This document shows, one piece after another, positions 9,450-58,534 of a DNA stretch of 64,000 nt (its first letter is position 1; each line of letters begins with the position of its first letter). The stretch spans positions 10,478,001-10,542,000 of the forward strand of contig OX597832.1 of the NCBI GenBank assembly GCA_951406725.2, written 5' to 3'. Below the pieces are notes generated by a model. That model saw only the letters and a list, made by a program, of their open reading frames with translations, did no database searches and was not told the DNA's origin. Source of the stretch: Octopus vulgaris. Taxonomy: Eukaryota. The position numbers were made by a program, and so were the translations under genes.

Positions 9450-9717
9450 TTGCAGCGTGGAAGGTGTTTATAAGCCATTTAAGAAACACACAAAAGCCGT
9501 TCGATTCACTCCAACATTTAAGTTTAATTTGTCAAAATATTTTCGTCGCTAAAATCCGCGACCTGTTCACTGACAAAGTCCGTGCTGCACGGACGTTTCA
9601 GCACACGATCGATTTTGACAAATCTTAAATGTTACTTGCTTAAATGGCGAGTAAACATGCAATTGTTTTCGTTTCAGCACACGATCTCAGATCAAATTAT
9701 ATGCGAGTACATCTCAG

Positions 9718-9720
<3 letters not shown>
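9450..9720. mobile_element. Penelope-terminal-repeat-like unit with internal inversion, embedded between (TA)n tracts
   Basis: 9451-9577 is the reverse complement of 44386-44516, while 9660-9720 matches 44515-44578 in direct orientation. The unit contains a hammerhead fold. Confidence 0.65.
9528..9577 (-). ncRNA. Minimal type-I hammerhead ribozyme candidate, G3-C8 core variant
   Basis: Minus strand reads UUUGUCA-GUGAACA-G-GUCGC(GGAUUUUA)GCGAC-GAAA-AUAU-UU-UGACAAA. This gives a 7-bp stem I, a 5-bp stem II, an intact GAAA and a palindromic stem-III loop. Confidence 0.65.
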
Positions 9721-9783
<63 letters not shown>

Positions 9784-9956
9784 TATAGGCGTTTGCTTTT
9801 GTGCATGCATGGTACAGCATATGTTTCGTTAGTCACTGAATTTAACTATTTTGATATCATGTGTGTGTGTATGTATGCATGTATATATATGTATATACAT
9901 ATGTGTGTATATGTGTATGTATGTGCATATAATTAGATACTAGTATTTGTTTCTTA

Positions 9957-10015
<59 letters not shown>

Positions 10016-11429
10016 TATTATACGCGCGCACACACGCATAGACACACAGACATACAAAAATACACAGACCTACGTGCATATGTGGTTGTGTGCCTGCACC
10101 CGAAATTACGCGTCTGTGCCTACAGCGTGTCTGTATTTTCATACGGCTGGTGTTGGCATGTGTTGGCATGTCTGTTGCCTTTTGTTTAAATATTATGACC
10201 TACGCAGTTTTCACTGTATTTTTTTTGTGAGTTGATCCACTGATGTATTTTTGTGCTATGTTTATATAATCTAAAGATAAAAAAGCATATATATATATAT
10301 ATATATATATATGCATGCACGGGTGCATGTTTGTTTGTGCGTAGTATACTCATACAAAAATATGTAGGCACATATGTCTATAGATATACACATACGCATA
10401 TGCATACATTTGTGCCTATATATTTACATATATATATGTTTGTCTATGTCTGAGTATGTATGTGTGTATTTGTATGCTTGCGTGCTTGTGTGTTTGTGTG
10501 CGTGTTGTTTTCAGAACAGAAATAAGACACTGCTGGTCTCCTAATGGAACATATGTTTCTATAGCGTATCTTTTTAACTCTTGAGTAACATCAGTAAAAC
10601 AACTTATGTTCAGTATCTTTTCACTGTACTGTGTAGATAAAATGTTTTATTTGCGAACTAAAATCTTTGTTGCATCCGTTGAGGTCAAAATCCTCAGTAG
10701 AGATATGAAAAATACATTTATTAAAATATTCTTTTGAATTTTCCATATATATCGAGCAAAAAAAACAGCGAATAAATAAGATAATGAAAGACCATATCAA
10801 TTTGGCATACCTTTATAACTGTTTCTGTTCTTTTTCTTTTCTTTTGGAGAATGATTTTTTTTTATTCTCATCATCTTAATTTGTTTTCTGTGTTGTTAAC
10901 AACTAGGAAATGAATGTTTTCTGTAAAATATAATACACGGAATTATTGCTGTGCTATTTTCTTGCATTTCTGTATTGATATTGATGTGTGTGCGTTTGCC
11001 TGTGTGAATGTATATACTTGAGAGAAAGAGAGTGTGTAGCTATGTCTATGTGTATGTTTAGTTCTAAGTTTACAGTGTATTCTGCACAAAATACAGTAAT
11101 CTACTAAATGAGGGTATCCGCATTTCGATTTTGTAATGCTGGAATATATTTCGGTTCTTTTTTTTCTGCTATAAAATATAATAGTAAAGCATTCCCTATG
11201 TACTTAGTATTATTACAGGCAAGTATGACCTGTAAAGAAATTTGTGTCATTCTTATATGATTTCGAAGTCGCAAGGGTCAAACTTGTATTCCATCTTCAA
11301 TAGCGGATGAAATGAAGTACCACACAAAAATTGATATCGAAAGAATCCATTAAGGAACACCAACTATTATTATTGTTGTTGTTGTTGATGTTATTATTAT
11401 TATTATCATTATTATCATTATTATTATTA

Positions 11430-12480
11430 CTCTTTTCTTTTTATCACAGATGCACATATCGTCAGCCACTAAGGGACATGCTCAACTGGTTAAGGTGAAA
11501 CAACTGACAAGCAAATCTGTGGTATTGAGAATGATATTTGCTGTAGCCCATCTTTTATACCAAGATTCACCTATTTCAGTTCCATTTCCATATGTTGCCA
11601 AGTGTCTACCTGACACCTAGGAAAGAGAAGCGTTTTATATTCATTGGTAGGCCATTAAAACAAGCACACCAGTTCATTTGCAGATTCCTGAGACAGAAAA
11701 AACAGGGAAGACAGAGAGCAAAAGCAATAAATTAAAAAATAGAAAAGTAAAGAAATAAATGCTCTTCTCAATACGTGTAACAGACATACCCCTTTAGATA
11801 ACCATTTGCACTTCCTGGATGGATGGTAAGCCAGAGATCATTCTTAAATAATGTTCAGTTCCTTTTTTCTCATTGAAGGTGCTACTACAGTCACTGATAT
11901 TGCAACCATCCTGAGATGCCACATATTTTCGATTTCGATTAGCAGATCTTTATATTTTCTGCGCATATCAAATTCTTTTGCCGAGATTTTATTTTCATAG
12001 GGTATGCTCACGTCAATCAGTAAACATACTTTACTGATTTTGTCTTTCACAACAATATCTAGGTTATTTGCCTTCACGGTCCGATCTGTACATATTGGGA
12101 AGTTTGAAAGAATTGTTACATTTTCCTCCATGAGTTACAGCTTCAGGGTGGTGCATGTAAAATTTGTCAGCAGTTCTGATTTTATAATGCCGACACATTA
12201 TCCAATGTTGATGTTGGCCAACTCATGTTTTGATTCGTACTGTATTGGTACTAAAACCTTACATCCAGAGATTAGTTGGTCGACTGTTTCTATCCCATCG
12301 CCGCAGTTTCGGCTCTTTGCGTCTACACCAATTTTCATCATATTGACTTCATAGATCTGAGTCAATAAACTCGGATCTTGGGCAACCATGATAAAGCATT
12401 CACTTTCTGCCTTTAGCTCTAAGCTCCCTAGCCCCTGATTTTTGTAGATGTTCTACCTTTACAAAAGGTCCAGCCTGTGA
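11430..12480 (-). mobile_element. Decayed R4/Dong-like LINE 3' portion (zinc knuckle, REL endonuclease, probable 3' UTR)
   Basis: ORFs 12198-12389 (AKSRNCGDGIETVDQLISGCKVL) and 11844-12131 (TDRTVKANNLDIVVKDK..CLLIDVSIP...KYKDLLIEIENMWHL). The 3' boundary is inferred from the (TTA)n tract at 11367-11430. Confidence 0.85.
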
Positions 12481-12627
12481 CAGAATCAACATTGTCATAG
12501 TAATGCCATCATCATTAATATCGTCATCATCATCATCACCATCATCATCAACTTCATTGTCGAACACCCCTTCGATGAGATCCTCGTTTCCCAATTTCTC
12601 AGGAACTTGATGTAGACAAACACACCC

Positions 12628-12628
<1 letters not shown>

Positions 12629-12694
<66 letters not shown>

Positions 12695-12715
12695 GTCGGT
12701 CTGTCTGTCTGTCTA

Positions 12716-12792
<77 letters not shown>

Positions 12793-23720: not shown

Positions 23721-24497
23721 TTGTTGTTTTGTTAGTAACCGACTTGAACTTAAATTATAGTAATATATATAGACTTCTGAGAGAGAGGTGGGGAGAGAGA
23801 GAGAAAGACAGAGAGAGAGACAGACAGACAGACAGACACACTGACGTACATTCATAAATCATTTCTTCTAATAGTGTTCATGTGTTTGCTAGCGTACGGA
23901 TGTGCAATTTGTACGCTTCCATTCTTCTAAGGTGTATCATTGGATTAAATTAGTTAATGAAACACGAGTCTTGGTTACGGCTTCATAGTTTTTTCCATTT
24001 CTGTAGTCTTTAGTTTATAATCGTCTTATTACACCAGTGTAATATTTTACAGATACTAATTGGAATATTGGTAATACTAATTCTCTATTGGCCACAGTAA
24101 TATAAAACATGTACAGGTGCAATAATAAAGGAACTACAAAAATCAACAAATCTAGCTTAGAAAGCGCATTAAATATTTAGTACCTAAATAAAGATATTTA
24201 TCCGCAAAGCTACGCTATAGGCCCAGAGATAATCTTTCGAAGAAATATTTCAAAATCAAACTTAATTTGGGAGAAATCATTTATGTTTCATTCTGGGTGT
24301 AAGTATCTATCCTTATTGTGACCGCAGTCTATTCCTGCTATCACAGGTGTGGCCATCTGAGGCAGAAATGAAGATGTAAATAACATATTGCCATGAATAA
24401 AAAGAGAGGAACAAAGTCATCTCTGATTCAGATTAATTTACGCTTCGAACACTTTAATCCGGTACCTGTACTTTTCAAATTCAGACTAATAGATATA

Positions 24498-24728
24498 TAT
24501 TTCTTTACTACCCACAAGGAGCTAAACACAGAGGGGACAAACAAGGACAGACAAACGGATTAAGTCGATTACATCGACCCCAGTGCGTAACTGGTACTTA
24601 ATTTATCGACCCCGAAAGGATGAAAGGCAAAGTCGACCTCGACGGAATTTGAACTCGAATCGTAACGACAGATGAAATACGGCTACGCATTTCGCCCGGT
24701 GCGCTAACGTTTCTGCCAGCTCACCGCC
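24498..24728 (-). mobile_element. SINE group B monomer
   Basis: Full-length reverse-complement match to group B. Possible TSD TAATAGATATA at 24487-24497 and 24741-24751. Confidence 0.9.
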
Positions 24729-25094
24729 AATTGATATAGATAATAGATATAGATTTTCTCCGCTGGTTGAAAGACAAAATCACTATATTTATTTGGACAG
24801 TGTCCTGTTATGCATTAATGGGCCATTATATGAATGAATGTAGGGATTTTATCATTTTAGAGTGCAAAACGCTTCTCCATGAATCACAGTACTCTAAGGA
24901 TTTTTAAGCAGCCCCATTGATCTTCGCACATTCCTTTGGAAACAGAGTAATTCCGGCACTACGGGTGAAAACACCGCTTCTAAAGAAAAACATTCCTATA
25001 TCCTACTTCTCCTTAATACTACACTTTTCATTTTAATAGCGTCTTTCATTTTCTATTTCCCACATAGTTATTCAAATTTTGGTCTGATAACCTT

Positions 25095-28720: not shown

Positions 28721-29077
28721 GGAGATTGGTGAAAGCAGGTGGGCGAATTCGTGCCAGGGGATATTATCATTATACAAGGAGGAGATTGGTGAATGCAGGT
28801 GAGCGAATTCGTGCCAGGGGATATTATCATTATACAAGGAGGAGATTGGTGAATGCAGGTGAGCGAATTCGTGCCAGGGGATATTATCATTATACAAGGA
28901 GGAGATTGGTGAATGCAGGTGAGCGAATTCGTGCCAGGGGATATTATCATTATACAAGGAGGAGATTGGTGAATGCAGGTGAGCGAATTCGTGCCAGGGG
29001 ATATTATCATTATACAAGGAGGGGATTAGTGAATATAGGTGAGCGAATTCGTGCCAGTAGATGTTATCATTATACAA
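28721..29077. repeat. 60-bp minisatellite, six units
   Basis: Unit GGAGATTGGTGAATGCAGGTGAGCGAATTCGTGCCAGGGGATATTATCATTATACAAGGA. Units 2-5 are identical, the outer units are diverged, and there are no spacers. Confidence 0.97.
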
Positions 29078-33879: not shown

Positions 33880-34555
33880 ACGTATACCCAGTTTGTTAGA
33901 AAATCTGAAGTGCTACAGAGAATCTTAACATGAAAGATAACTTCAGTTAAAAGACTTAATTGTATAGAATGTCTTAAATCTGTACACCTTTGAACGACTC
34001 AGAGAATGATATGGCGTTCTAAGCAAAGGCCTCCACGTACATTTCGGTGCAAGAATTGGTAGACACCATCAAGTCTCCCATTTGCCACCTTCCAAATCAC
34101 GAGAAATAATACAATACTGCAGATGTCTTTATTCCGAGGACTGCAAGTGTTCAGCTGCCTACAGAGAATAATTGGAGACCTAAAAAAGGCCTTTTAATAA
34201 AATATTACAGATATCATTGGATGAATCCGTAACCAAAATATCTATTTATTTACTACCCACAAGGGGCTAAACACAAAGAGGACAAACAAGGACAGACACA
34301 CGAATTAAATCGATTATATCGATCCCAGTACGCAACTGGTACTTAATTTATCGACCCCGAATGGATGAAAGGCAAAGTCGACCCCGACAGAATTTGAACT
34401 CAGAACGAAACGGCAGACGAAATGCCGCTAAGCATTTCGCCCGGTGTGCTAACGTTTCTGCCAGCTCGCCGCCTTTCCGTAACCAAAATATCACACCAGC
34501 CACCTGTAGAAGGTCACGTTCAAAGAAGGTCAGCTCCGGCTAACTAAGCTTCAGA
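33880..34555 (+). mobile_element. CR1-group LINE 3' fragment interrupted by a SINE
   Basis: CLKSVHL/LYTFERLRE...RIGRHH...QYCRCL.FRGLQVFSCL...-[SINE]-.QPPVEGHVQRRSAPAN resembles the post-RT C-terminus of CR1/L2-group elements. Confidence 0.6.
34243..34475 (-). mobile_element. SINE group B monomer with 17-bp TSD
   Basis: TCCGTAACCAAAATATC at 34226-34242 and 34476-34492. Confidence 0.93.
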
Positions 34556-35335
34556 TCAACATCCAGCGAGAAAAACTAAAAATACAGAAAAATCTAGTAA
34601 TATATAGAAAATAATGAAATAGAAATAAAGCAGTACTTCAGCGTGGCCACAGTCCATTGACTGGAACCAATAAAATAATAAATGAATAAAAGAATTGAGA
34701 CTATCTATACATTCATAAAAAACCACAGTGTTATGCTTATAAATATGAGTCTTCATGTGAACAAAATATCGCCATGAATTTGTGCATAAATAATTATTTA
34801 TAATACATGAAGCATACAAAAGTAAATACAAATAGCGACGAATTAATAATGGTTCAAATAATAGAATTAGTTAATGGAAATATATATACTGCAATATGTT
34901 ATATAATATTAAAGCAGATATGGTATAAGTGTAATTTGTCGCAGAAATATGCTGGTATATTTACATAAAGAGGATTAGAATTAATAGTTGAATTAAAATT
35001 GAATGTTAAATTAATGAAACGTTCGAACTGTGATATCAGAATCTTTGTACAATTGATATAAGATTTTTATAAGATTTTTATAAGATGAGTAAATGATGTA
35101 CAAGATATGATGACCCTCTGTCAGGATACAAACAGGCTGTTAATTTATGAAATAGGTATAAATACTTTTGAAAACGTTAGGATAACTTTAACATGAATGG
35201 GTCAAGAAGATCTTTTGTCAGTGTCTTTTATACAGATATTGGTTCATTCATATAAAAGATTTCCTGTTTGTGACATGCGACTTTCCGAGTTAATTCTAAT
35301 GTTATGCCCTCATTCAAAAAAATATATTAAAGTCG

Positions 35336-35409
35336 GGCAAGTGTCTTCTACTATAGCCTCGGGCCGACCAAAGCCATCGGTAGATGGAAACTGAAAGAAG
35401 CCCGTCGTG

Positions 35410-35440
<31 letters not shown>

Positions 35441-35662
35441 GCGTGTGTATATGTTTGTATGTCTGTGTTTGTCCTGCCAACATCGCTTGACAACCGATGC
35501 TGGTTTGTTCACGTCCCCGTAACTTAGCGGTTCGGCAAAGGAGACCGATATAATACGTACTAGGCTTACAAATATTAAGTCCCGGAGTCGATTTGCTCGC
35601 CTAAAGGTGATGGTCCAGCATGGCCACATTCAAATGAATGAAACAAGTAAAATAGTAAAAAG
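35336..35662 (+). mobile_element. SINE group A, 5'-truncated
   Basis: Begins at GGGCAAGTGTCTTCTACTATAGCC and ends in GAAACAAGTAAAA. Confidence 0.88.
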
Positions 35663-38248: not shown

Positions 38249-38279
38249 CATATATACATATACATAAACCTTATGAAGA

Positions 38280-38640
38280 CGGCGAGCTGATAGAAAAGTT
38301 AGCACGCCGGAAGAAATTCTTAGCGGTATTTCGTCTGAGGTTATGTTTTGAGTTCAAATTCCGCCGAGGTCAACCTTGCCTTTCATCCTTTCGGGGTCGA
38401 TTAAATAGGTACTAGTTACGCATTGGGGTCGACATAATCGACATAATCCGTTTGTTTCTCCTTGTTTGCTTTCTGTGTGTCTAGCCCCTTGTGGATAGTA
38501 AAAAATAGGTATTTCGTCTGTCGTTAGGTTCTGAGTTCAAATTCCGCCGAGATCGACTTAGCCTTTCGGGGTAGATAAATAAAGTATCAGGTCGCACTGG
38601 TGTCAATGTAATCGACTTAATCTCTCTGTCTGTTCTGGTT
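38280..38640 (+). mobile_element. SINE group B dimer
   Basis: A full unit followed by a second unit starting at GGTATTTCGTCTG (about 38508). Confidence 0.85.
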
Positions 38641-39588
38641 TGTGTATGTCTGTGAGTGTCTGTGTGTGCGTATGTATGTGTGTTTGTTTAATTCAATAAA
38701 TAGAAGAACACGAAATTATGCAATGTACTTCATTAGGTCACAATCGTTTCTGCTATCAGTTGCAGTGCGCTAAGTGTTTGTGCATCAAACACTTCCAACG
38801 TGAAGTGATCTTTTCTATATTTGTACATTATTTTCCAAGTTAATTTACACTTCAGTTTGGAAGCTCCGAGGAAGTGAAATTATACATATGGTTCACTTAT
38901 GAAAAAACAAACTTTGGAAAAACACACACATACATATCTCACACACAGATACACGCAATCACAAACATATATATATATACACAAACTGAAAACGATCAAG
39001 AATTAAAGCAGATTCATGAAAAGAAATTTTTAATATTTTCAATGTTTTCATAAATTTCCAATTCCTTTGTATACGCGAGAAAATACTTAAATATTATCCC
39101 ATGGTTTGAACGTTCCATGCACATTAATTATATAAAACAGCAAGGGTTCCTTTTCAGCTGTATCACCGTGTCTTATTAGAATATATTGCTATATATTTAG
39201 TATGTAAGAATGTAACTTCCGAGAAGTAATAAAAATATTGGATAACATCCATTTATTTGCTCTGAGATTGACAGAAATACGAGATGCTAACGACTGTAGA
39301 CCTACATTTATAGATATACTCAACGAGTGCTCACCAGCAGTAACTAAGACAACCACCGAGTACCTCATGTGTTTCCGAAATAACTGAACATACAACAGAG
39401 TTCTATAGCATATGTAATAGACATTTCTTTTAGAATAATATGTTTATATATTGCACGGTTAAGAATACGAATTTTGCTACAGAAATATTCGGTAGTTGTG
39501 GTAATAAGCGTAGGTAGTTTGATGTATATTAGCCGTCATATTTACTCTTCTTATAGAGTAATAATTCTTATAATTCTTATAATTCTTC

Positions 39589-39714: not shown

Positions 39715-39920
39715 TTCGAATTTTAGCACTAGGCCAGCAATTTCGGGAGAGAGGGTAAGTCGATTACTTCGAAACAAGTGTTCAACTGGTACTTATTTTA
39801 TCAACCCCGAAAGGGTGAAAAGCAAGGTCAACATCGGCTGAATTTGAACTCAGAACATAAAGATTGACGAAAAGTGCCTAAGCATTTCGGCCGGCATGCT
39901 AACGATCCTGCCAGCTAACC
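39715..39920 (-). mobile_element. SINE group B, alternative 3' tail
   Basis: Same head and core as group B, but the tail is the reverse complement of TTTTAGCACTAGGCCAGCAATTTCGGG, shared with the 50686 and 58880 copies. Confidence 0.8.
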
Positions 39921-40937
39921 CCTTTTTTGCTGCTTTAATATTCAAATCGTTATATTTTATCTGCTACTCCTATTTCCTGCAATTCAGCTATCTGATCTTT
40001 CTCTCCTTTATTTCATCTTTCTTAAAGGCTAACTTTACCCTTTTCAATTTTTTGAGGGCTTAGGATTTGTAACTACCGTCATTAATGCTGACTTTTCTCC
40101 TCGTATTTCATCGCTCATCACAAATTCCTGAAACTCCTGAACCTAACTCTCTCCCCCTCTCTCTGTCTATCTATCTATCTTTCTATCTATCTCTCCCTTC
40201 CCCCTCTCTCTTACTTCCTCTCTTTCTCCCTCTTTCACATTGTGTATCAAGCTCACATCTTCCTTTCTCTCCAACTACATCTCTGTCCCAACTCCTCAAA
40301 ACGACATAACCACATTCATTATCTACATTAGCTTACGAAGAGCAAGTCTCCGAAACTTTAGATTCCTCACGCCATTTAAACATATGGAACTCTACTATGA
40401 ACTTTCATATTTGTTAGTTAACCTACGTTTGCTGTTCGTGACTTGTCTGAATTTTAATTATATCATGGTAGACGCTGATTTCAGATTTTCCGTTGGGATG
40501 AATCATGTAGCCGACATACAATACATTTGATTTGATCTAATGGATTAAATATCTCGATGTTTGCAAAGTTATTTAATCTATTAAATGGTTTCGGAGCAAT
40601 ATATAATTTTGCTTAGCGAAACCGTCTTAGAATATTCTACATTAGAAAGTGATTTCACCAAGTGGATGTTCTATTAGGAACAATATTACTGCATATCCAT
40701 TAGGTTATTTTATGAATGAAATCTACTAAAACTATAACAGTAATGATTTCTAGATCCGTGTTTTATTTATCTATATTTTCTTCATCTTATACTGAATATT
40801 ATCTCATGTGTGCACCACATTAATGTGATTATATTCTGGTTTCAATTTCTCCATTATATTAGCTCATTCTTCTCTTGGGGAAACTTTTGCAGGTTAGCTA
40901 GACTTATTATCTAGAACAAACTCAGTCTAGAATTAGA

Positions 40938-42504: not shown

Positions 42505-42667
42505 GGCCTAGGAGTTGGTGTGTGGTACGTTGCTTCCTTACGAACCGCGTGGTTTCGGGTTCAGTCCCACTACATAGCATCATGGGCAGGTGTCTTCTAC
42601 TATAGCCTCGGGCCGACCAAAACGCTGTGAGTAGATTCGGTAGGTGGAAACTGAAAAAAACCCGTCG

Positions 42668-42758
<91 letters not shown>

Positions 42759-42908
42759 GTGTTTTGTTTGTGTGTCTGTGTTTGTACCACCAACATCGCT
42801 TGGCAACGGATGCTGGTTCGGCAAAAGAGACCGACAGAACAAGTACTAGGCTTACAAAGTTCTGGGGTCGAGGTGCTCGACTAAAGGCGGTGCTCTACAG
42901 TCAAATGT
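42505..42908 (+). mobile_element. SINE group A
   Basis: Head with GGGTTCAGTCCC, an internal (TA)n(TG)n tract and the group A tail. Confidence 0.88.
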
Positions 42909-43550
42909 ATATGTGTGTGTGGAGGAGGACATGCGTATATGTGCACACGTTGATATTAAAAATACATATCAGTGATAACATATGGTTAAAAGCACACGAT
43001 AGTAATAATGATAATAAGAATAAGATGTATATACACACACAATGACAAAGAAGATCGATATCTAGAAATGCGCAAGTTGTTGTAGTCAAGTTGGACACCA
43101 AGAAGTATTTATGCGTTTGTATATATCAGCTGTAAGATATAATTAAATGTCAGGTACATTAGCAAGTAACATTAAACATTATTAATTGGAATACGTAAGT
43201 AGGGCTGGTTATTAGGTACATTTTATGATAATGAAATAAATCTTTACTTGGTATACTACTTCTTTCATTTTACAGTTTCCATCTGCTTCACAAGTATTAG
43301 AGTCTCTGGAATTAAAATTTAAATTATTAGGTGGGACTATGTTGTTATGTCTATATATATTAGGGATAATGGAATTTTGCTTATTATCATAATGCTAGTT
43401 GTTAGTTATAGATTTAGTGGAATTGCCTGGTATATTGGATGAAGCTATTTTTTTTCATATTATAGAATAGGTCCAGTTTTATATTGTTAGGAGTTTATCC
43501 TGAAAGTGTTTGTAGAGAGTGAAATTCCCAAATCTAGTTGATTTTGTTAG

Positions 43551-43765
43551 TCTTTTACTTGTTTCATTCATTTGACTGTGGCCATGCTGGAGCACCACCT
43601 TTATAGTCGAGCAAATCGACCCCAAATCTTATTCTTTGGAAACCTAGTACTTATTCTATCGGTCTCTTTTGCCGAACCGTTAAGTTACAGGGAAGAAAAT
43701 ACACCAACATCGGTTGTGGAGCGATGTTGGAGGGACAAACACAGACACACAAACATACACACACA

Positions 43766-43811
<46 letters not shown>

Positions 43812-43855
43812 GTAGACGGAAACTGAACGAAGCCCGTCGTATATATGCATATATG

Positions 43856-43911
<56 letters not shown>

Positions 43912-44105
43912 CAGATATACACATACATATATACATATATACGACGGGCTTCTTTCAGTTTCCGTCTACCAAATCCACTCATAAGGGTTTGGTCGTCCCG
44001 AGATTATAATAGAACACACTTGCCGAAGGTGCCACGCAGTGTGACTGAACCGGGAACCCTGTGACTGGTAAGCAAGTTGCTTACCACACAACCACTCCTA
44101 CGCCT
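43551..44105 (-). mobile_element. SINE group A, full length, with internal fold-back duplication
   Basis: Reverse complement of the group A pattern, with an extra inverted copy of TTTGGTAGACGGAAACTGAA.GAAGCCCGTCGT at 43807-43866. Confidence 0.9.
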
Positions 44106-44385: not shown

Positions 44386-44438
44386 TTTGTCAGTGAACAG
44401 GTCGCGGTCTCAAAGCGACGAAGATATATTTTGACAAA
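44386..44438 (+). ncRNA. Second copy of the G3-C8 hammerhead fold (GAAA mutated to GAAG)
   Basis: UUUGUCA-GUGAACA-G-GUCGC(GGUCUCAAA)GCGAC-GAAG-AUAUAU-UU-UGACAAA. The stems are identical to the 9528 copy and loop II differs. Confidence 0.55.
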
Positions 44439-45662
44439 TTAAATTTTAATGTTGGTGTGAATCTAACGGTTTTTGTGTGTTTCTTAAATGCCTTATAAAC
44501 ACCTTCCACGCTGCAATCATTTTCGTTCCAGCACACGATCTCAGATCAAGTCACTCGCTATGCAAGTGAATCTCCGTAGATTTTATTTTTCATCTATAAT
44601 TAAATGTGTTTGATGTTTGTTGTCAGTATTCTTGGGTTTATTTAGATTATTATTAAAGTAGTTAGTGATTCGTGAATTGCTAAAGTTAATATTATTTTTT
44701 TTTCTTTTAGTAAAGTTTTGGTTATGGCGCTCCTACTGATTATGTTTGTTACTACATTTATTGTGGTTGTGGATTTTCTGTCTATTGCTAATTTTGTGTT
44801 GATGACCATTATTGAGAGTTTCTGTTTGTTTGTCGGGGTGTACAAATCACCGGTTGGTTTAGGTTCACTAATATTGTCTACGTTGTTCATATCAGGATAC
44901 ATTTTGTCACTATTAATATTGATGCTTTTGTTTTATTATACTTAATTTCATATTTTTTATCCTGTTTTCTTAAGTGCTAGATTATAATTGTCTTTATGTT
45001 TTTTTTTTAATTTCTTCATTATATTAAGGAAAGTTATATTGAAATGTCCAGTGGAAGAGCATAGATATATTTGAATTAGGATATGACTTGACAGTTATAA
45101 GCAATATTAAGTATGATGTGTATTTAAAAAATATATTCGTGAGAATGAAATTAAACTAATGAATGTAGTTTATAGGAAGCTACTAGAAAACAACGAGAAC
45201 AAGAGTTAGGAGTAGAAATGCTTAAAGAGCTACATATAATGGAGTTGTTTTAGTGTAGGAACAATAAACATAAAAAATGAAAATAAATTTCATTTAACCT
45301 AATCCTTCCAATAATACACATAACCACATATTAATAAGTGATACCAATATCATATGTAAGAATAAATGACCTCCAAAACATTCGTTTATGTGTATTAAAT
45401 ATGAGGTGTAAATTAAAAAGTAGGAAATTAGTTGTAATTATTACAACTAATTAAGATAGTAAATACTTGCTGTGGCTATAACTATTAAAAAATCGTTCAG
45501 ATGTTTAATAGATGCAGTAACACTTAGATTAACAATGTAGGGGAGATAATATAGTTAGGAAAAAAGATAGGAAAATTAAAACTTATAATCATCGATATTT
45601 AGTAGATTGACTATTTAAGTTTAAATAAAAATGTGTGTTAAGAATATGTAAGCCAGTTAACT

Positions 45663-47250: not shown

Positions 47251-47294
<44 letters not shown>

Positions 47295-47446
47295 TAAACA
47301 TAACGACCTCGAACCCACAAGATTAAACAAGAGAGAGAGAGAAGGTAAAAACAAGGAAAATACCCCTTGTATTTGAATACTATGCACATATTCTTCTAAA
47401 AACTTTTCTATTAATTTTTCCGAAATTTAATTGTTTTCCATACTTA

Positions 47447-47482
47447 CAGTTGAAAAAGTCTCAATCACTGGAACCGGTACTG
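47447..47482 (+). ncRNA. Degenerate minimal hammerhead fold, U3-A8 core variant
   Basis: CAG-UUGAAAA-AGU(CUCAAUC)ACU-GGAA-CCGG-UA-CUG. The stem-III loop CCGG is palindromic and there is one mismatch in GAAA. It sits in a ~280-bp unit flanked by (TA)n. Confidence 0.5.
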
Positions 47483-47763
47483 GATTGTTTTTTATAAAAT
47501 TATTTTTATATTTTCTACCTTGACTTTTTTCCATACATATCAACTCATGTGTTCCTTTACAACAATCTTTATATATATATATATAATATATTTACGTGAC
47601 AGTTAGGCGTTGGGAACCCAACCAACTGGATTTTACCTATCCAATATACTGCTGGCAGTATACCAAATTATTAATACCCACGTACTAGTTATTGCGTGGC
47701 AATTTAGCAATCGAGTGTCATATATAGGCGAGGGTAAACGGTGGTTTACCCTTAATTTATACG

Positions 47764-48313: not shown

Positions 48314-48396
48314 ATAAAACCACTATTATGCAACTCAAACAGTGATAGACATAGTTTATGTCTATCACTGTTTGAGTTGCATAATAGTGGTTTTAT
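48314..48396. repeat. Perfect 40-bp inverted repeat, 3-nt loop
   Basis: ATAAAACCACTATTATGCAACTCAAACAGTGATAGACATA-gtt-exact reverse complement. It extends imperfectly to about 48292-48418. Confidence 0.96.
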
Positions 48397-49428: not shown

Positions 49429-50685
49429 CCAAATATGAGATAAATCAGTAGTGCATATTAATTGGCTTTGAGGTGGACAAATATTTCCATTCACCTTATC
49501 TACGTGAAAACGTAATAAATCAATAATATAAAACTCTATATTATTATAGTCTTATGAGTGCGAAATGGCTGTAGTTTTAAGTACATTGAACGAGAACATG
49601 ACAAGAATTACAAAATGAATGTTACTGCAATGACAATTTGATTACGATCTGTACCCAACACTAAAGGTGTTCAGCAGTAGAAAGATGGTGCCAATATAAA
49701 CATCAATATATTAATTTACTTCAATTATTGCAGATAAAATGTGGCTTCTATGCAGTTATCTTTATATGATTATGATGTCTAATTCTTCTACATCGCTTTC
49801 GCTCTATGTTTGCTCTTATTAGTTATACACACAGAAACACACACACACACGCACACATACATATATGCATACCGTACACACCAACATATATGTGAGTGTA
49901 TATATATATATATACATTAAATGTTTTAGATTTAATAGCGGAAACTGTGTTTGAAGACGAATGTAATTATTATGTCTACCAAATATGTTCTCAGACACAA
50001 GGTGCGCTTGTATGTACATTTTAGCTGTGTATGGCGTCATCAACCGCAGTTTTGTACCCTCTTTAACTATCCATAAAGAAATTGCCCATAAAACCTGTAA
50101 TATTAGTGGCCAGTTTTAGGTAGACCAATTAAGAATATTCTAGCATACTAACACTTTTCTTGTCAGCGACATTTAACACTTATCTGTTGGTACACTTTAA
50201 TTCTCTCTCTCTCTCTCTCCCTCTGTCTATGTATCTACGTGTCTCTTTATATCTCACCTCTCTCTCTATGTCTGTATATATATATATATAATATATATGT
50301 ATGTGTGTGTGTGTAGATATATTATGTATCCCATACAGTGTTGCATTATATAAATATACAAGTGCTTTTCGAAAATACACCCACGTTACTTCGGCAAATA
50401 AGTCTACGAGGCTATATAAATATGTGTGCAATTGTAATAATATTAGCAAGTAATAACATGTGTGTAAAAAACACATTTAATATAAATGTGATATACATTA
50501 CAAACGACATTTATCTAAATATTAGTCTCCTTCAATGACAATAAAAAAAGAGAAAAAAGAAAAATAAAGAAAACCTATTCACTAATATCCGGTAAATTCA
50601 CTTGTATGGTCCGTGGTAGGAAATGACGAAATGTAGCATAGCATTCCAACCGATCGATTAGAGAGAAACTTCCCAAAATGTTGGC

Positions 50686-51120
50686 TTCAAATTTTGGCAC
50701 AAGGCCAGCAATTTTGTGGTAGCGTTTAAGTCGATTACATCGACCCGAGAACTCAGTTGGTACTTATTTTTTTTCGCCCTCGAAAACTGAAAGGCAAAAT
50801 CAACCTTGGTGGAATTTGAACTCAGAACACAATGACGGACGAAATGCCGTTAAACATTTTACCCGCGCGTGCTATCGATTTTGTCATCTTACTCCCTGAC
50901 TTGACCAAAATATTGGTCTCACATTTTGACACGAGGTCAGCTATTTCTGTGGGATGGCTAAATCGAATACATCAGCACCATTATCCGATTGGTGCTTATT
51001 TTACCGCCCACGAAAGGATGAATGGCAAAGCTGACCACGGCGGAATTTGAATCCAGAACGAAAAGACGGACGAAATGTCACTAAGCATTTTGCTTGAAGT
51101 TCTAACGATTCTGCCAATTC
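50686..51120 (-). mobile_element. Two adjacent diverged SINE group B copies (alternative tail)
   Basis: TTTTGGCACAAGGCCAGC...GGAATTTGAACTCAGAAC is repeated at about 50686-50895 and 50915-51120. Confidence 0.78.
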
Positions 51121-52040
51121 ATGGACTGACGTGACAAATAAATTAATAAATAAATAAAATTTTGATTCTATATTCAGTTTCAGCCATGAAAATATACCAA
51201 CAGTGAACTCACTCATCTCAATGTACTCGATTTCATATTAATTGAAAGTTATATGCTCTTATGTTTATAGAATGTTATACAGAGAATATTGCATCCTTAT
51301 AGTTTACGAATAGATTGCACCGAACGTGTAACAGCTAAACGGCTGCATTTGTTACCCATTTGTCACAGATCTGAAGGACGCCGTTTCGTCCTGAAATTAT
51401 ATATGAATCTAGGTCCAAATTTCATATTAGCCAAAGCTACTTAACGACCAGCCTATCTTTAATGCAAAATCTTTTTTTTTTTTCTTTCAGAACAACTTAA
51501 AGAATAAAATATTCGCTCAAAACGAAGCTGAAAATAAACTGGAATGTCTTCTATCATCAAGCTCCACCAACGAAAACGAAAGCAGACATTAAAATGCTAG
51601 CCTTTACAGCAATATGCCATGTCATTATCTAATCTTTCTAATTCTCAGTTTCCTAACTTACAGAACCTGAAAGTTAATAAGTGTTTCTAAGTTTTAATAT
51701 ATATTTACCTTCAGACAAACGATGAGAAGTCAGCGTAATTGTCACTAATGCTTATAATGAAATTAACAACACAGCATGAAATATATAGATTTAGAGAATA
51801 TCAATTGATATTGGCCAAATGTTTGTAAATGCACAAGATTCGTGTAGGAGAACATTTCACGACGTGAAATAGGAAATTTTACTGCATTCAACACCTTCTT
51901 CAGAAGTGTGCAATTAGGCCTTCAATAGTTCTCGGGCCTGTTGTTGCAACCAAAGGAGCTCTTTATCTAAGATACTTTGGTACTTTCAAAGTCTAATCCC
52001 ATTAGCCATATCTCCACTGCAGAAACCAATAGCAAGAACC

Positions 52041-52272
52041 TATTTCTTTATTACCCACTAGGGGCTAAACACAGAGGGGACAAACAAGGACAGACATAAA
52101 AATTAAGTCGATTACACCGACCTCAGTGCGTAACTGGTACGTAATTTATCGACCCCGAAAGCATGAAAGGCAAAGTCGACCTCGGCGGAATTTGAACTCA
52201 CAACGTAATGCAGACGAAATACCGCTAAGCATTTCGCCCGGCGTGCTAACGTTTCTGCCAGCTCGCCGCCTT
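52041..52272 (-). mobile_element. SINE group B monomer with 15-bp TSD
   Basis: CCAATAGCAAGAACC at 52026-52040 and 52277-52291. Confidence 0.93.
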
Positions 52273-53757
52273 GTTGCCAATAGCAAGAACCGTTTCAGAA
52301 ATAATCTCAATAACTACAAGCCCACTGCATTTAAATACAAAAGATAGTCCTTTCCTAAAGACGACTTTATCTTATCACTCTTGTATCAGGTTAATGAACA
52401 ATTTTATCATTTCTGGCAACCCCTATAAGTTCACATCTCGTCCTCAAACACCAAATATATGCTAAGTGTTTTGTGACCAGTTCACTCAAATATATCCAAA
52501 ACCTATACGTTTAAATGGACATCGTGAATGCATATACTTTAAATATTCTGAAGTTTAATTGCTACCCCTTACATGGAACAGATAAAACGTAAAGCACATA
52601 ACACCAGTTACACCTGTTAATTATTCGCAAGGTATGTAGATGAGGCCCTCATGCACAAATCGCGTAAGGAGACAAAATACCAATTTGGCATTATCAATAA
52701 TATTTACGAAAACTTAGACTGAGAAATGAAATATGCCGATTATAACTCATATCACAAGCTGATAGATTACTAGCACAAAATGACATAAGAACTATGAAAG
52801 CAAACTTTCGCAATATAACCTACTGCTTTAATTGTGCATTACAGAGTAACCCCGTTATCACTACCAAAGCTTATTCAATACAGAATTAAATTACTCTAAT
52901 TGAGAACAGATAGAGTGCAGCTACGCAAAGAAACAATAACACTAACCAATTTAAAATATTATTAATGGTATTCACTGACATCCTTGAAGAATGAGTAGCG
53001 TGGTAGTATCAAATCAAACAATCACTACAGATCTGTCATACGATCATTAAGAGGAACGGATTTCCTCAGGAAAATCTTGTTGTGGAATCAATAAACAAGT
53101 GGTAAAATTGTATAGAATAGTACGAAATATCTTTGGTGGATTATAAGTCAGAAAGATGCTTCGCATTAAAAGACGAATTCATAAAAACGATATATGTCGC
53201 CAAATTATACACATCAATGTTGAACATATTGTACATATGTCAGGAAATTGATTTTAGGATGTATGCGAATGAGAAAGACTGTACTTATTAATATAATGAA
53301 GACAACATTACACAAAAGAAGGTTGAGCAATGCTGTCTTCTCATGAGAGGATCTTAATCGGGTCTGGCTCTCTAACATATAGTTAAATATGCACAGATCT
53401 GAGCTAAGTATAGTTGCCCACTTCTTACATTCAGACAAATTTTCGGAGTCGAAGAATCAAAATGTATAGATTGTAAATCATTATTTTCCTTCGACTTTTA
53501 TCTCCACACTGCTTCATTCAATTAGCGTTGTGACAGCTTCCGGGAATACTATACACATGCATACATGGAGCCATACATACAGACAGAGAGACATAGTCAC
53601 ACACATATATTTATCTCCATATAAATATATGAGTTCATGTGTATAAGTATGTATATGTTGAGTGCATATGTACATATATACATATATACGTATATATGGA
53701 TACACACAGATGCATACATACATATATGTATATATATATATACAAACATATATATAT

Positions 53758-53797
<40 letters not shown>

Positions 53798-55294
53798 GTG
53801 TGTGTGTGTGTGTGTGTATACGTGTGTGCGTGTTTTGAAAGTGCTACACTTTGGGCAACCCACTTTCAATGTATTTAAGAATTCAAGTACTTCAATTTTT
53901 ACGAAGGTAAACATCATTTGCATTTTCTTCCATTACTTTTCCACACAGGAGTATTAAAAGGCATAAGCATCACACTGTTCGTTTAGTATTGTACCACATG
54001 TAACTCCATAGCATTATTCTAAAATAATCGATATTTAATATACTCTGTTGTGTCTTATTGCATCTTATATTTTAAATGTCGCGCACGTTTTTAATTGTGC
54101 TCATATGATTTTCTTTAAAACATTTTCTAATATGTTTTTAATATGTTCGCTCGTTTATTTGTGTATTTTATATATTTATTTATGTATTTATATTTAATTG
54201 GACAAATTTGGCCATTTTGGTTCTCATTTTCTTTTTGCGTGTAACACTATAACATTTTCGTCAATCGTTAGTATCATTAATCTCTGTAAGTTTAACTGAG
54301 CTATATATGTTGCAAAGATATATGATGCTGTTCGTTACACTTCTTCTAAAAGTTTGTAGTTGTATCTTTGAATAAGAATACTGCAGTTATATTTGTTTGA
54401 TTTGTATTTTGCTGTATTCAACCACGTTTGCTTATCGATTGATTACAAGGTGTAGATGGTTTTAGATGCTTTTTTTCCTTCATAACATATATGCAAAGAA
54501 ATCTATTCATATTTTTATTTTGGTATGTGTTCCCATTTTTATTTTGTTCGTGTATTTCATGACTGTCCTAAAGGCGTTGATGCGTCAAGATTCTGTTTCC
54601 TCGGAAACTTTCTCTCAATTTTCTGTTTTATTTCATCTTATTTATTACCTTTTTGTGTGTCAGTGAAACCTGCGTCATTCTAATATTCGTCCATATCTTT
54701 ATTGCAGAATATTCTACATTTCCTTTCAATAAAGTATTCTCTTTTCAAGTTATTTCTGTCTCTGTGACATACTTGCTAAAAAAAAATTATTTCAACATAA
54801 GTTATAAGGATTCCTATAAGAATTCATAAATGTTCATCGTTGAAAATTATTACAATGCTACGTTGGTTATAGAGATATATTTGTAAGTTTTTTAGTGCTA
54901 TATCCGCGAGATATTTTGTGAAACAACTGATACATATTTTTTTGTTCTGTATTCATATTCTTATAACAACTCATAGATATTTTTCAGCATTTATATATTT
55001 TTATAACAAATGATTTTGTTTTTCATTTTGAATTGATAATGTCATAGAAAAGGAATATAAATTTTGACTTCGAATTGGCAGTTATGATAAATGTATTATC
55101 ACTTAATGGAAGCCGTAAGTATTATATTTTCCACAAAAATATTGGTTTTACTGTTGGTGGAAATTACAATGCTCATTGTCGCTTCTAAGTACTGCTCAAC
55201 CATTAATTTTATGATTTGAATACTGTTATTTCAAACGTTTTTCTCTTTCCAACATGCAATTATTGGAGTCAGCTGCATTTGATTTGCTGCTCTT

Positions 55295-55551
55295 TCTTTT
55301 GTTCTTCTTCTTGTCTTGAGACAGCATTCACCAGGGCTTCGTTGAGCTGGCTTCATTCATCCTCAATGCTGCATCTCTAAAAAACACCGACCAGACCTGG
55401 CGATTTGAGGCTAACGACCGCGTGATCTCCGACCACTGCTGATTCCAGCGGCGAACGCCGTAGATATGAGGGCCTAGGTTGGGTTCCAGATCAGCCTTGA
55501 CTGTCATCAGCCAGGTTTTTCGTTATCCAAAACATCGCTTTCGCCAACCCT
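55295..55551 (-). mobile_element. RTE-clade LINE 3' end
   Basis: Minus strand GWRKRCFG*RKTWLMTVKADLEPNLGPHIYGVRRWNQQWSEITRSLASNRQVWSVFFRDA...PW* is a typical RTE C-terminus, followed by a short CAAGA/AAG repeat tail. Confidence 0.8.
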
Positions 55552-57206
55552 TTTGTCGTTGTTGTTACTATTGTTTATCACAAAGAAATACTTATCGGGC
55601 AGATATATGTCGAAAGATACTCCAATCAAAAATAATTCTTTCCGTTATTTTTTAATTTTTATTTGTGTCCGTAAAGTTCATGCCATTCCATTGAATTACG
55701 AAATTGATAATCTTTTAAGGAAACTCTGACTGTCATTTCTAATAGGGTGTTCGAACACGTAAACAAGGTGAGTGGAAATTGAATCAGCAACTTAATTTTG
55801 GGACATAATTTCTACTAGAAAATATTAGAATTTGTACAATGTTAAGACATGTTAATAGATCATGTGCAAAAATATTACGTACCATTATACAAACATATAA
55901 GGAGTTAGAACCATTGAGTATACAAAGTTATTTTTAAGTTTCTGTGAACTGTTGTAAAGAAAGAATGATTGGGATTATAAATATTTTAATAGATGAAACT
56001 CAATGCATATTTGATTTTGATTTTTCCAGTTTCAGCTAATGAGCTGTGGCCATGCTGGGGCACCGCCATATGATTGCTCTTTGCAAACATCACTTGAAGC
56101 CAATGATTCATTCATCAAAAACTCCAAAAGTGTATTTTCCGATTGAATGTTCTCGTAAAGGAATGATCTCATCCCAAAATTAATGCAGAATTAAATTAAT
56201 CAGAATTGAATTAATCCGTGGCACATGATCTCACACTATATATTCTTTTTGATTCTTCGTTGGTCAGCTCAAGGTCCGCAATGAACAATCACCTGTAACA
56301 TTAGAAATTTTTTCGTCCATAACAAAACCCATATATTCAATCATGCGTCAACTTACACTAGATTATCCAATATGTTCTTTAGAAATTTCTTTCAAAGACA
56401 TTATGTCGTGATATAGTAGAATATTAGCTTCTTTGTTTTCCGTGACACTGAGCCGCTACGTGGAAAATACTTCATTTGCCAGTCAATATGATTTTATTGA
56501 GGAATATGTTGATTTTTAGATTATCCTATCTCTCATTAACTCGTTGTTTGTAGTTAGGGGATTTAGAATTGCACAATTCTTTTTGGTGGTAATTTAAAGA
56601 TCATCAGGCTGCTATTCTTGCATTTTCGGTGACCAGAAAGACATCAACTCAATGACTCAAATGTTTGGTATATACAACTTTATCATACAAGCAGAACCGT
56701 ATCAGTGTGTTTGATACATATTTCTGTATTAGATATTTTCGCATCAGTCCAGCTGCATTTCCTCTTGAGCAATATTTCTATTACACTCCAAAGCCAACAA
56801 TATGTTATAAGAAAATTCGATAGTTGGAAGTTGTACGTCGTGTGTTTAATAAGAAATATGGTATAGCGCCGGCGACTAATTGTGCCAGCGTGTCTAAAAA
56901 ATGCGATGATATTGACCAATTAATTAGGAGTGACAATCGATTGCAGATGTTGAATTTGAATTAATTAGAAAGTAGATGGAAGTAATTATGTAACGATAAA
57001 AACTTAAAATCGAAGAAAATTGAGAATTTCAGTGGTAGTTATGTGGTGGAAGCGAGGTGTATTCCTAAACAGTTTTGCGTACACAAGTTACACAAGACAC
57101 CTAAAAAAAGTAAATGGTGCAGATGGAGCATAAAGTTAGCAAAGAGACACATTGCAATATAGTTCACTAAGTGCTAAATATCATTTGGTCAGTTTTTGTT
57201 AAATAT

Positions 57207-57437
57207 CTATTTCTTTACTACCCATAAGGTGCTAAACTTAGAGCGGACAAACAAGGACAGACAAAGGGGTTAAGTCGATTACATCGACCTCAGTGCGTAA
57301 CTGGTACTTAATTTATCGACCCCGAAAGGATGAAAGGCAAAGTCGACCTCGGCGGGTTTGAACTCAGAACGTAACGCCAGACGAATTACCGCTAAGCATT
57401 TCGCCCGGCGTGCTAACGTTTCTGTCAGCTCGCAGCC
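57207..57437 (-). mobile_element. SINE group B monomer with 14-bp TSD
   Basis: TTTTTGTTAAATAT at 57193-57206 and 57438-57451. Confidence 0.93.
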
Positions 57438-57855
57438 TTTTTGTTAAATATTCCGAAGCCGTTAATAGACGAATTTGATTTATTTTAATAAGGACCATAA
57501 AGTATATGATGGAACTTTTGGGTAAAACCTAAGAATATGAAGTTAATTAAGATGTTGCATGTGTATTATTTTCTGTTTTATATATTAAGTTGGATTTCGA
57601 AATGAAGCAGATGAGACTATTAAAATTAATAGAACTCATATACAGGGGTACATTATTTGAGTTAACATTGCAAAGAGTTTGATGTTTATTATAAGAACAA
57701 TGATTTCAGTACTATACAAAATAAGTTAAAATTGTTAAGTTTCTTTAAGAAAATGTATATCTTTCTGTTGTGTCTGGGGAGAGTCATTCTCTTTTAGTGC
57801 ATTATTATTTAACACATTCACCGGTAAAATTTCCACTTATTTCTAATTTTTATTT

Positions 57856-57894
57856 TCTAAAATTTCCGTTGCGTCTTGCAACATTTTCAATAGA
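57856..57894 (-). ncRNA. Possible minimal hammerhead fold, U3-A8 variant with almost no stem III
   Basis: UCUA-UUGAAAA-UGUUGC(AAGAC)GCAACG-GAAA-U-UU-UAGA. Confidence 0.4.
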
Positions 57895-58534
57895 CTTGAC
57901 TCTTTCGTTTATCAGACTCTTTCGTTAATCTATATTTTTCTTTTATCAGAAAAGAATTTGGATAAATTAAAGTCTTCTCATGAGGAGTAATAATGACACT
58001 TTGTTAGTGGCCTCTAATACTTAGCGGTCTCTAACACTTAGCAGCTTCCTACATGTAGCCTCTTCATTTTAATTTCCATGTGCGTGCTTGGGAAAAAGAA
58101 ATATATTACTTTAAGTCCGCAAGCTAACTATTGCAGTTGTTGTTATTTGATATTTTATAATTTAAATTTTTTCTGACAAATTTGTAAACTAATCTAATTG
58201 CTGCGAATTTTGAGAGGATTAATTGTCTGCATGCTGCGATGTGTAATAAATCTTCTGCTACTAGAGTATTACTTGAGAATTAAATTTTGGCCTCATTTCG
58301 CGTGTTGTACTCTTAATAAACAACATGCATTGCAAATGTAGCCTGTTTTCAGTCCATGTAATGTACCGAGAACTGGAAAACTAACTATAACAAAGTAACT
58401 GGTGTTTGGAGTTTTTATTAAGATTTTAGAACATATTATAAAGCAAGTCTTTAAAAATATTTTTAAAATAAATTCTGGCTTCTCTCAGGTTTTGCAAGGT
58501 AAAATATTAGAGTGATATTATCTTAGTGTAAGTA

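What the first reader, a model, noticed from the sequence alone, without database searches (positions are those of the whole stretch)
9450..57900. Synthesis: several short ribozyme-bearing repeat families with different 3-8 core pairs, favouring (TA)n tracts
Seen: one 64-kb window has at least three sequence-unrelated short repeats with hammerhead architecture, using G3-C8 or U3-A8. Two of them (9450-9720 and 47293-47570) are ~270-280-bp non-coding units sandwiched in (TA)n. Established: solo Penelope terminal repeats and retrozymes are short hammerhead-containing mobile units that can yield monomeric or circular RNAs. Inference: this genome may hold a large, under-annotated population of variant-core self-cleaving elements that target TA microsatellites. 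Core and palindrome differences might keep dimerisation family-specific.
Basis: inference. Interest (0 to 1): 0.7.

Follow-up and report, generated by a model that had tools for sequence, protein, structure and literature searches.

The report
Penelope retrotransposon stubs with swapped-core hammerheads
The three short repeats are end-pieces of three ordinary protein-coding Penelope-type jumping genes that often land in TA microsatellites; each carries a hammerhead-shaped RNA motif, predicted but not shown to cut itself, whose central base pair differs by family (G-C in one, U-A in two), and the stubs are likely by-products of copying uncut element RNA rather than self-spreading ribozyme circles.

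Summary
Observation largely confirmed. Three unrelated repeat families with minimal type I hammerhead folds lie in the window: A (G3-C8; 9449-9589 minus, second copy 44386-44578), B (U3-A8; 47299-47563) and C (U3-A8; 57763-57912 minus). Exact core-pattern matches genome-wide: 9,795, 674 and 2,750 (controls 60, 0, 0). They are not retrozymes. A is the pseudo-LTR of a 4.26-kb RT/endonuclease Penelope-like element; B and C copies also join Penelope ORFs. A stubs mostly start near +1, upstream of the predicted cut (+58), and end at two sites (about +146, +206), so they were likely copied from uncut RNA; no head-to-tail short tandem junction was found. TA bias is real (8 of 12 A ends vs 5.5% background) but also holds for a canonical C3-G8 family. 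The 3-8 pair lies within one strand, so it cannot set dimer partners; stem I and the palindrome could. Only one of four window copies has an intact core. U3-A8, TA targeting, inverted stubs and tails are published; a natural G3-C8 core was not found in my searches (one key paper unavailable). This scan reported the same family repeatedly on other DNA of this genome.

The parts
9449..9589 (-). Family A pLTR arm (+4 to +144 of the element front end), 98.6% identical to the full-length element's pLTR; its 3' end runs into (TA)n
   Evidence: BLAST to L281 pLTR; sequence
9528..9577 (-). Intact minimal type I hammerhead fold with G3-C8 core (GUGAACA), bulged G, 5-bp stem II, palindrome AAUAUU, 7-bp stem I; predicted cut after UU at about 9535
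   Evidence: score 13; 0 in 30 shuffles; MFE fold forms stems I and II
9594..9720 (+). Scrambled, internally deleted sense arm of family A ending in the ~60-nt tail (+139 to +201), then (TA)n; no hammerhead
44386..44578 (+). Older family A copy (87.6% identity), G3-C8 core at 44393, damaged GAAG box, tiny fold-back at its 5' end; AT-rich, non-TA flanks
47299..47563 (+). Family B: truncated end of a longer Penelope-like element, inserted in (TA)n
47447..47482 (+). Family B hammerhead fold, U3-A8 core (UUGAAAA), 3-bp stem I, palindrome ACCGGU; this copy has GGAA and a stem II mismatch, predicted inactive
57763..57912 (-). Family C pLTR stub without tail; not in a TA tract
57857..57893 (-). Family C hammerhead fold, U3-A8 core, 5-bp stem II, palindrome AAUU, 3-4-bp stem I; this copy reads GGAA (a variant in 6 of 25 parsed family copies)

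Best explanation
The units are pseudo-LTR stubs of three protein-coding Penelope-like retrotransposon families of the Zn-linker (Neptune/Nematis-type) kind, likely made when the element's endonuclease nicks (TA)n or other AT-rich DNA and its reverse transcriptase copies uncut element RNA from one of two internal start sites back to the RNA's 5' end; each family has fixed its own 3-8 pair in a minimal hammerhead that is predicted to cut slowly and only as a same-family dimer or with protein help. Shown: link to ORFs, pLTR-ORF-pLTR for A, two 3' end classes, 5' ends clustered at +1, inverted arms with a tail on one side, TA bias, family-fixed cores. Inferred: +1 is a capped transcription start (extra G at -1), priming sites, nicking, ribozyme activity.
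For: A: L281 has pLTR (core 4738) - ORF (YVDD RT motif, C-x3-C-xx-C linker, VYQIKC...YIGET endonuclease motif) - pLTR (core 8999), period 4,261 nt; all 8 fetched long loci hold parts of this ORF next to the pLTR. The ORF starts at +115, so the tail lies inside the ORF 5' end, as in the PAc element (PMC11167929). C loci L069 and L073 join an ORF 50-58% identical to A's; at least 8 of 30 B loci carry endonuclease-region hits upstream, 36-67% identical to an intact 781-aa PLE ORF with Pfam RVT_1 and GIY-YIG matches. In 30 consecutive A arms on C1, 16 start at -2 to +4, 2 (one locus) start near the cut site, none extends further upstream, and 3' ends fall in two classes, +142-149 (11) and +198-208 (19); 19 of 30 have an inverted partner and 16 of 30 run into TA. 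13 of 18 arms stopping at +1 have G at -1 where the element has T/C. In the random sample, TA follows 8 of 12 A ends and 5 of 10 C ends vs 5.5% background. Cross-family stem I pairing is 0-2 bp vs 3-7 bp within family.
Against: Pfam gives no RT or GIY-YIG match for the family A ORF at E<=1; its assignment rests on motifs read by eye and weak BLASTP hits (E 1e-9 to 1e-5) to Pfam-positive PLE ORFs. No intact full-length copy was fetched for B or C, and L281's ORF has a stop and a frameshift. Several -1 G's could be templated by the inverted arm (microhomology), and the sequence just upstream of +1 also looks like a 3' splice site. Within family A there is no compensatory subfamily: 21 double changes at 3/8 look like random mutation, with 1 C3-G8; covariation is only between families. 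The clade was not placed on a tree, and no cleavage data exist.
Confidence: 0.88

Rival explanations
1. Non-autonomous retrozyme-like units that self-cleave to unit-length or circular RNAs and spread as such.
For: About 95% of young A arms lack upstream element sequence (rough estimate: about 280 of about 5,000), and stub sizes are stereotyped. Retrozymes are proposed to derive from PLEs (bioRxiv 2026.07.22.740005).
Against: 0 tail-to-head junctions for A genome-wide (no positive control for the gapped pattern). No short regular direct tandems among 90 A, 30 B and 30 C loci: the few direct pairs were at 33-49 or 645-894 nt and irregular. Stubs span the cut site in 95 of 100 listed. Arms are head-to-head, so the two hammerheads lie on opposite strands and cannot release a monomer.
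Confidence: 0.04
2. The variant cores, G3-C8 above all, are vestigial: the fold persists by descent and copy number, but the RNA no longer cleaves.
For: Cleavage is not needed for insertion in vitro and C3G/G8C gives only partial rescue (PMC11167929). Genomic stubs come from uncut RNA. High copy number alone explains the excess over shuffles.
Against: Between sister families A and C the 3-8 pair stays Watson-Crick and stem II shows a compensatory C-G/U-A change. Between young and old A subfamilies, change concentrates in loop 2. No listed variant at positions 3 or 8 at >=3% in four runs from four organism labels (8 rows not shown). This rival is compatible with the structural part of the best explanation.
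Confidence: 0.2
3. The head-to-head stubs are a MITE-like hairpin element that is mobilised as a whole.
For: The best matches to 9451-9720 were near-identical ~309-bp palindromes.
Against: That was ascertainment: only 37 loci have that exact junction, and junctions vary in unselected copies. Among 18 distinct palindrome loci, 3 share a private variant on both arms and 4 have arms of different subfamily type, which fits assembly at each insertion.
Confidence: 0.03

Closest known systems
Minimal type I hammerheads (min-HHR) in pLTRs of metazoan Penelope-like elements (Cervera and de la Pena 2014, PMC4209133; Results and Discussion read)
   Same: Type I fold, no real helix III, palindromic loop 3, bulged nucleotide after A9 (A, C), mostly single genome-wide copies, U3-A8 variant already reported in Schistosoma Cercyon PLEs (about 1,300 hits).
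   Different: Family A has G3-C8, which is not mentioned in the parts read. B lacks the bulge and has A10.1-U11.1.
C-terminal-EN PLEs with CX2-5CxxC linker (Neptune/Nematis), and (TA)n-biased Naiad/Hydra (Craig et al. 2021, passages); Adineta Pen2a (PMC3846280, passages)
   Same: pLTR-ORF-pLTR, inverted 5' copy, tail on one end, Zn-linker, microsatellite insertion bias, head-to-head palindromes, solo pLTRs.
   Different: Tail is about 60 nt in A and C versus 30-40 nt described. Stubs with ends pinned at +1 outnumber long copies about 20:1 (rough estimate). Clade not placed on a tree.
PAc Poseidon element of Anolis (Frangieh et al. 2024, PMC11167929; main text parts 1-2 read)
   Same: Two internal RT start sites in the 5' part of the ORF define the tail; AT-rich nicking; uncut RNA is the insertion template; engineered C3G/G8C is partly active.
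   Different: Canonical C3-G8 core and no Zn-linker clade. Here the evidence is genomic only.
Non-LTR retrozymes (bioRxiv 10.64898/2026.07.22.740005, abstract to methods read; PMC7229834 search listing only)
   Same: Short, non-coding, type I hammerhead, related to PLE pLTRs.
   Different: Retrozymes are head-to-tail tandems; these units are single or head-to-head and continuous with ORF-bearing elements.

Membership tests
EN+ Penelope-like element (Neptune/Nematis-type) | RT ORF downstream of or between pLTRs | tested here: met
   A: L281 pLTR-ORF-pLTR with YVDD motif. B and C: tblastn hits to PLE ORFs adjoining the repeats.
EN+ Penelope-like element (Neptune/Nematis-type) | C-terminal GIY-YIG endonuclease | tested here: inconclusive
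   B: EN region 36-57% identical to a Pfam GIY-YIG-positive ORF. A: motif seen by eye and BLASTP E about 1e-5 to GIY-YIG regions, but no Pfam hit.
EN+ Penelope-like element (Neptune/Nematis-type) | CX2-5CxxC linker before EN | tested here: met
   A: CQSNCAVC. The B-related ORF D: CGRPNCGIC. C and B linkers read by eye from DNA printed.
EN+ Penelope-like element (Neptune/Nematis-type) | Inverted 5' copy and optional 3' tail | tested here: met
   19 of 30 A arms have an inverted partner; two 3' end classes 60 nt apart; same layout seen in B and C loci.
EN+ Penelope-like element (Neptune/Nematis-type) | Insertion bias to (TA)n | tested here: met
   A 8 of 12 and C 5 of 10 ends vs 5.5% background in the random sample. 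Best-scoring loci: B 16 of 28, C 13 of 37.
EN+ Penelope-like element (Neptune/Nematis-type) | Placement in a named RT clade | not tested
   No named reference RTs were at hand; A and D ORFs are only about 21% identical, so they probably belong to different lineages.
Minimal type I hammerhead | Core N3UGAN N8A...GAAA...UH with Watson-Crick 3-8 pair, stems I and II, palindromic stem III | tested here: met
   Met by the family majority forms and by the 9570 copy; not met by the B, C and second A window copies.
Minimal type I hammerhead | Self-cleavage after H17 | not testable with these tools
   Only contigs of runs guessed to be RNA were available.
Non-LTR retrozyme | Head-to-tail tandem units each with a hammerhead | tested here: not met
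   0 junctions for A; no regular short tandems in 150 loci.
Non-LTR retrozyme | No own ORF (non-autonomous family) | tested here: not met
   Repeats are continuous with RT/EN ORFs.
Non-LTR retrozyme | Circular RNA accumulates | not testable with these tools
   No raw RNA reads were listed.

The most novel reading that the evidence does not exclude
Family A carries an active natural G3-C8 hammerhead, a core not found in my literature searches, placed between the likely cap (+1) and the start codon (+115). Because it should cut only when two same-family RNAs pair through stem I and the palindrome, it would decap its own mRNA in a dose-dependent, family-specific way: a copy-number brake that explains why PLEs keep ribozymes they do not need for insertion.
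Probability: 0.1. Interest if true: 0.7.

Novelty: new variant of a known kind. Interest (0 to 1): 0.3.

Why it matters
The system itself is known. The added value is modest. (1) A G3-C8 core is fixed in roughly ten thousand copies, and standard CUGANGA descriptors would miss it. (2) Sister families with three different 3-8 pairs in one genome give a natural panel for cleavage assays. (3) Thousands of stubs act as a genomic footprint of the likely transcription start and two priming sites, and they agree with the in vitro finding that uncut RNA is the insertion template. That sharpens the open question of what PLE hammerheads are for.

Tried and rejected
Rfam scan: no hammerhead family among the 150 of 196 matches listed; all were low-complexity hairpin noise. 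Fixed-junction MITE idea: rejected, only 37 loci. Link of family A to the intact 781-aa PLE: rejected; the A stub in L117 is a separate insertion and that family (D) has its own U3-A8 pLTR. Compensatory subfamily inside A: not found. Expression and circles: no RNA holder listed on record. Contigs of runs guessed to be RNA cover the pLTR but cannot show ends, strand or level, and the few 'goes back' joints were single contigs away from the cut site, so they are used neither for nor against. Pfam on the A ORF: nothing. The strict descriptor misses B and D folds with weak or mismatched stems, so the U3-A8 class is undercounted; B had no hit in the random sample. The first C pairing table used a mutated copy and was redone. 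Papers not held: Lunse et al. 2017 (PMC5785218) and Przybilski and Hammann 2007 (PMC1986816). No supplements were read; supplementary alignments of PMC4209133 may show further core variants.
Full report
Setting. The window is G000:C19:10478001-10542000 of a 2.8-Gb animal genome. It is AT-rich, with 50 (TA)6+ tracts. The top named homolog of the family A protein is an Octopus vulgaris RT-domain protein at 57% identity, so I treat the host as an octopus (inference).

Checking the observation. A descriptor that allows any Watson-Crick 3-8 pair found one perfect minimal type I hammerhead: minus strand, G3 at 9570, core GUGAACA, bulged G, 5-bp stem II, GAAA, palindrome AAUAUU, 7-bp stem I. No hit reached that score in 30 block-shuffled windows. 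With one core mismatch allowed it also found a second copy of this family A at 44393 (GAAG) and a U3-A8 fold at 57890 (family C, GGAA). Family B at 47447-47482 was missed because this copy has GGAA and a stem II mismatch; the most common form among 23 parsed of 30 loci is a U3-A8 core with a 4-bp stem II and palindrome ACCGGU (10 exact). So three families are present, but only 1 of 4 window copies has an intact core. Two of the four sit between TA tracts. Such 150-400-nt spacers are common in themselves (10 in the window, 155 in 1.2 Mb). Rfam listed no hammerhead among 150 shown of 196 matches.

Abundance. Exact core patterns with positions 3 and 8 left free match 9,795 (A), 674 (B) and 2,750 (C) places, against 60, 0 and 0 for reversed controls. 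By hand count, 94 of the first 100 in each list keep the family pair. These count arms, not insertions, and are lower bounds. In 120 evenly spaced 10-kb stretches, strict hits (score >=9, palindromic) were C3-G8 7, U3-A8 2, G3-C8 4 (3 loci, all family A) and A3-U8 0, against means of 0.2, 0.2, 0.1 and 0.3 in 10 shuffles. Non-Watson-Crick classes were 5 vs 2.2 (max 6), which is within noise. Thirteen hits in 1.2 Mb extrapolate very roughly to tens of thousands genome-wide, about half with variant cores. This excess reflects repeat copy number, not proof of function.

What they are. Searching for sequence upstream of the A motif gave long copies. Locus L281 reads pLTR-ORF-pLTR with a 4,261-nt period. 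Its ORF has the YVDD RT motif, a CQSNCAVC linker and a VYQIKC...YIGET endonuclease motif, and all 8 long loci fetched hold parts of it, often as inverted pairs. Pfam does not recognise this ORF, but it matches Pfam-positive PLE ORFs weakly (E 1e-9 to 1e-5). C loci L069 and L073 adjoin an ORF 50-58% identical to A's. At least 8 of 30 B loci have endonuclease coding sequence upstream, related to an intact two-ORF PLE (family D: RVT_1 and GIY-YIG). D has its own U3-A8 fold and ends in (TA)n. All three families show the published PLE layout of a sense copy, an adjacent inverted copy and a tail on one end (Craig et al.; PMC3846280).

How the stubs likely arise. Numbering from the AGATG 58 nt upstream of the predicted cut, the ORF starts at +115. 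In 30 consecutive young A arms on C1, 5' ends were -2 to +4 in 16, +16 to +29 in 9 (some probably alignment stops at a small insertion), +42 to +50 in 3, and +56/57 in 2 (one locus). None extended further upstream. The 3' ends fell at +142-149 (11) or +198-208 (19). In the longer list, 95 of 100 arms run through the cut site (hand count). Of 18 arms that stop exactly at +1, 13 have G at -1 where the element has T/C. This fits a copied cap, though microhomology with the inverted arm can explain several, and the upstream sequence also resembles a splice acceptor. The pattern matches the PAc element in vitro: two internal RT starts in the ORF 5' end define the tail, AT-rich DNA is nicked, and uncut RNA is the template (PMC11167929). 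The stubs are therefore most likely cDNAs primed at about +146 or +206 and run to the RNA's 5' end. The window unit 9450-9720 is such a head-to-head pair with one intact arm and one scrambled arm. The apparent fixed 309-bp palindrome was ascertainment (37 loci). Among 18 distinct palindrome loci, 3 share a private variant on both arms and 4 have arms of different subfamily type.

TA targeting. In the random sample, TA follows 8 of 12 A ends and 5 of 10 C ends, against 5.5% of random positions (arms of one locus are not independent). Among best-scoring loci it was 16 of 28 for B and 13 of 37 for C, and 16 of 30 for unselected A arms. It is a family trait, not a core trait: one canonical C3-G8 family had (TA)5 downstream in 4 of 4 copies, the other 3 C3-G8 hits and both U3-A8 hits had none, and the background was 17%. 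TA bias is published for Naiad and Hydra and is attributed to the Zn-linker also present in Neptune.

Dimer specificity. In a double hammerhead, positions 3 and 8 come from the same strand (established geometry), so the 3-8 pair cannot choose a partner. Contiguous pairing is 7, 3 and 3 bp in stem I and 6, 6 and 4 bp in stem III within A, B and C, against 0-2 and 1-3 bp across families. Family-specific dimers are thus plausible through stem I and the palindrome alone. Head-to-head arms are on opposite strands and cannot form a dimer in cis.

Is the G3-C8 core under selection? Between sister families A and C the 3-8 pair stays Watson-Crick and stem II changes C-G to U-A. Old and young A subfamilies differ mainly in loop 2, and no variant at positions 3 or 8 was listed at >=3% in four runs from four organism labels (8 rows not shown). 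Against: the 21 double changes inside A look random, and engineered C3G/G8C is only partly active. Activity is likely but unshown.

Retrozyme test. No tail-to-head junction was found for A (no positive control), and no regular short tandem among 150 loci. RNA data were limited to contigs and are not used as evidence.

Literature seen. PMC4209133: Results, Discussion and part of Methods; U3-A8 reported in PLEs. PMC3088659: passages; natural U3-A8. PMC11167929: main text. Craig 2021, PMC3846280, PMC6765202, PMC3884650, PMC6155905, PMC6962438 and PMC13282606: passages. The last reports 31 recently active Penelope-like families in O. vulgaris and never mentions hammerheads in its main text. bioRxiv 2026.07.22.740005: abstract to methods. 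Searches showed no natural G3-C8 core, but Lunse 2017 was not available and no supplements were read, so 'unreported' is tentative.

Earlier notes of this scan describe the same G3-C8 family and the stub model on other DNA of this genome. My reading was logged before I saw them, and they are not independent support.

Verdict. This is a real feature of a known kind: Penelope pLTR stubs with minimal hammerheads. The only new-looking point is the family-fixed G3-C8 core. Novelty: new variant of a known kind. Interest 0.3.

Noticed in passing
L111-L115, L128-L130 (G000 C16, C17, C6, C3, C2, C5, C4): Young, apparently intact PLE family D: overlapping 479-aa and 781-aa frames (RT + GIY-YIG), pLTR-ORF-pLTR, U3-A8 fold with very weak stem I and palindrome ACAUGU, ending in (TA)n with an optional ~35-nt tail; many copies with a full 781-aa frame.
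   Followed up: partly
window 47430-47449; L281:4700-4721; L114 pLTR: Splice-acceptor-like sequence (pyrimidines + AG) ends exactly before U3 in family B, at +1/+2 in family A (with a CTAAC branch-like motif), and inside the core in family D, recalling the intron end at helix I reported for D. virilis Penelope. Splicing was not tested.
   Followed up: no
run X14 loose end at L281:4762: A contig from another organism label shows family A's stem II preceded by a canonical CUGAAGA core; only 1 such place was found in this genome. It may be a mutant or a sister lineage.
   Followed up: partly
window 6677-7303, 24490-24742, 34236-34491, 38276-38643, 39715-39943, 50673-51116, 52028-52277, 57200-57453, 58533-58909: Dispersed ~184-250-bp repeat family with about 11 copies, tandem at 6739-7290; looks like a cephalopod SINE (label recalled, not tested).
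   Followed up: no
window 1296-1672, 3966-4394, 35335-35661, 42510-42895, 43544-44099, 62415-62650: Second SINE-like family with an internal (TA)n/(TG)n tract; contributes many of the window's TA tracts.
   Followed up: no
window 8197-9219 and 60788-61737: Two decayed Tc1/mariner transposon copies (Pfam HTH_Tnp_Tc3_2, weak DDE_3).
   Followed up: partly
window 48317-48393 and 28721-29077: A near-perfect 77-nt inverted repeat, and a 60-bp tandem array of 5.9 copies at 96% identity.
   Followed up: no
L132:7913, L194:6031, L205:7999, L239:2599: Abundant canonical C3-G8 minimal hammerhead family (palindrome ACGU) that also ends in (TA)n; ORF link not sought.
   Followed up: partly
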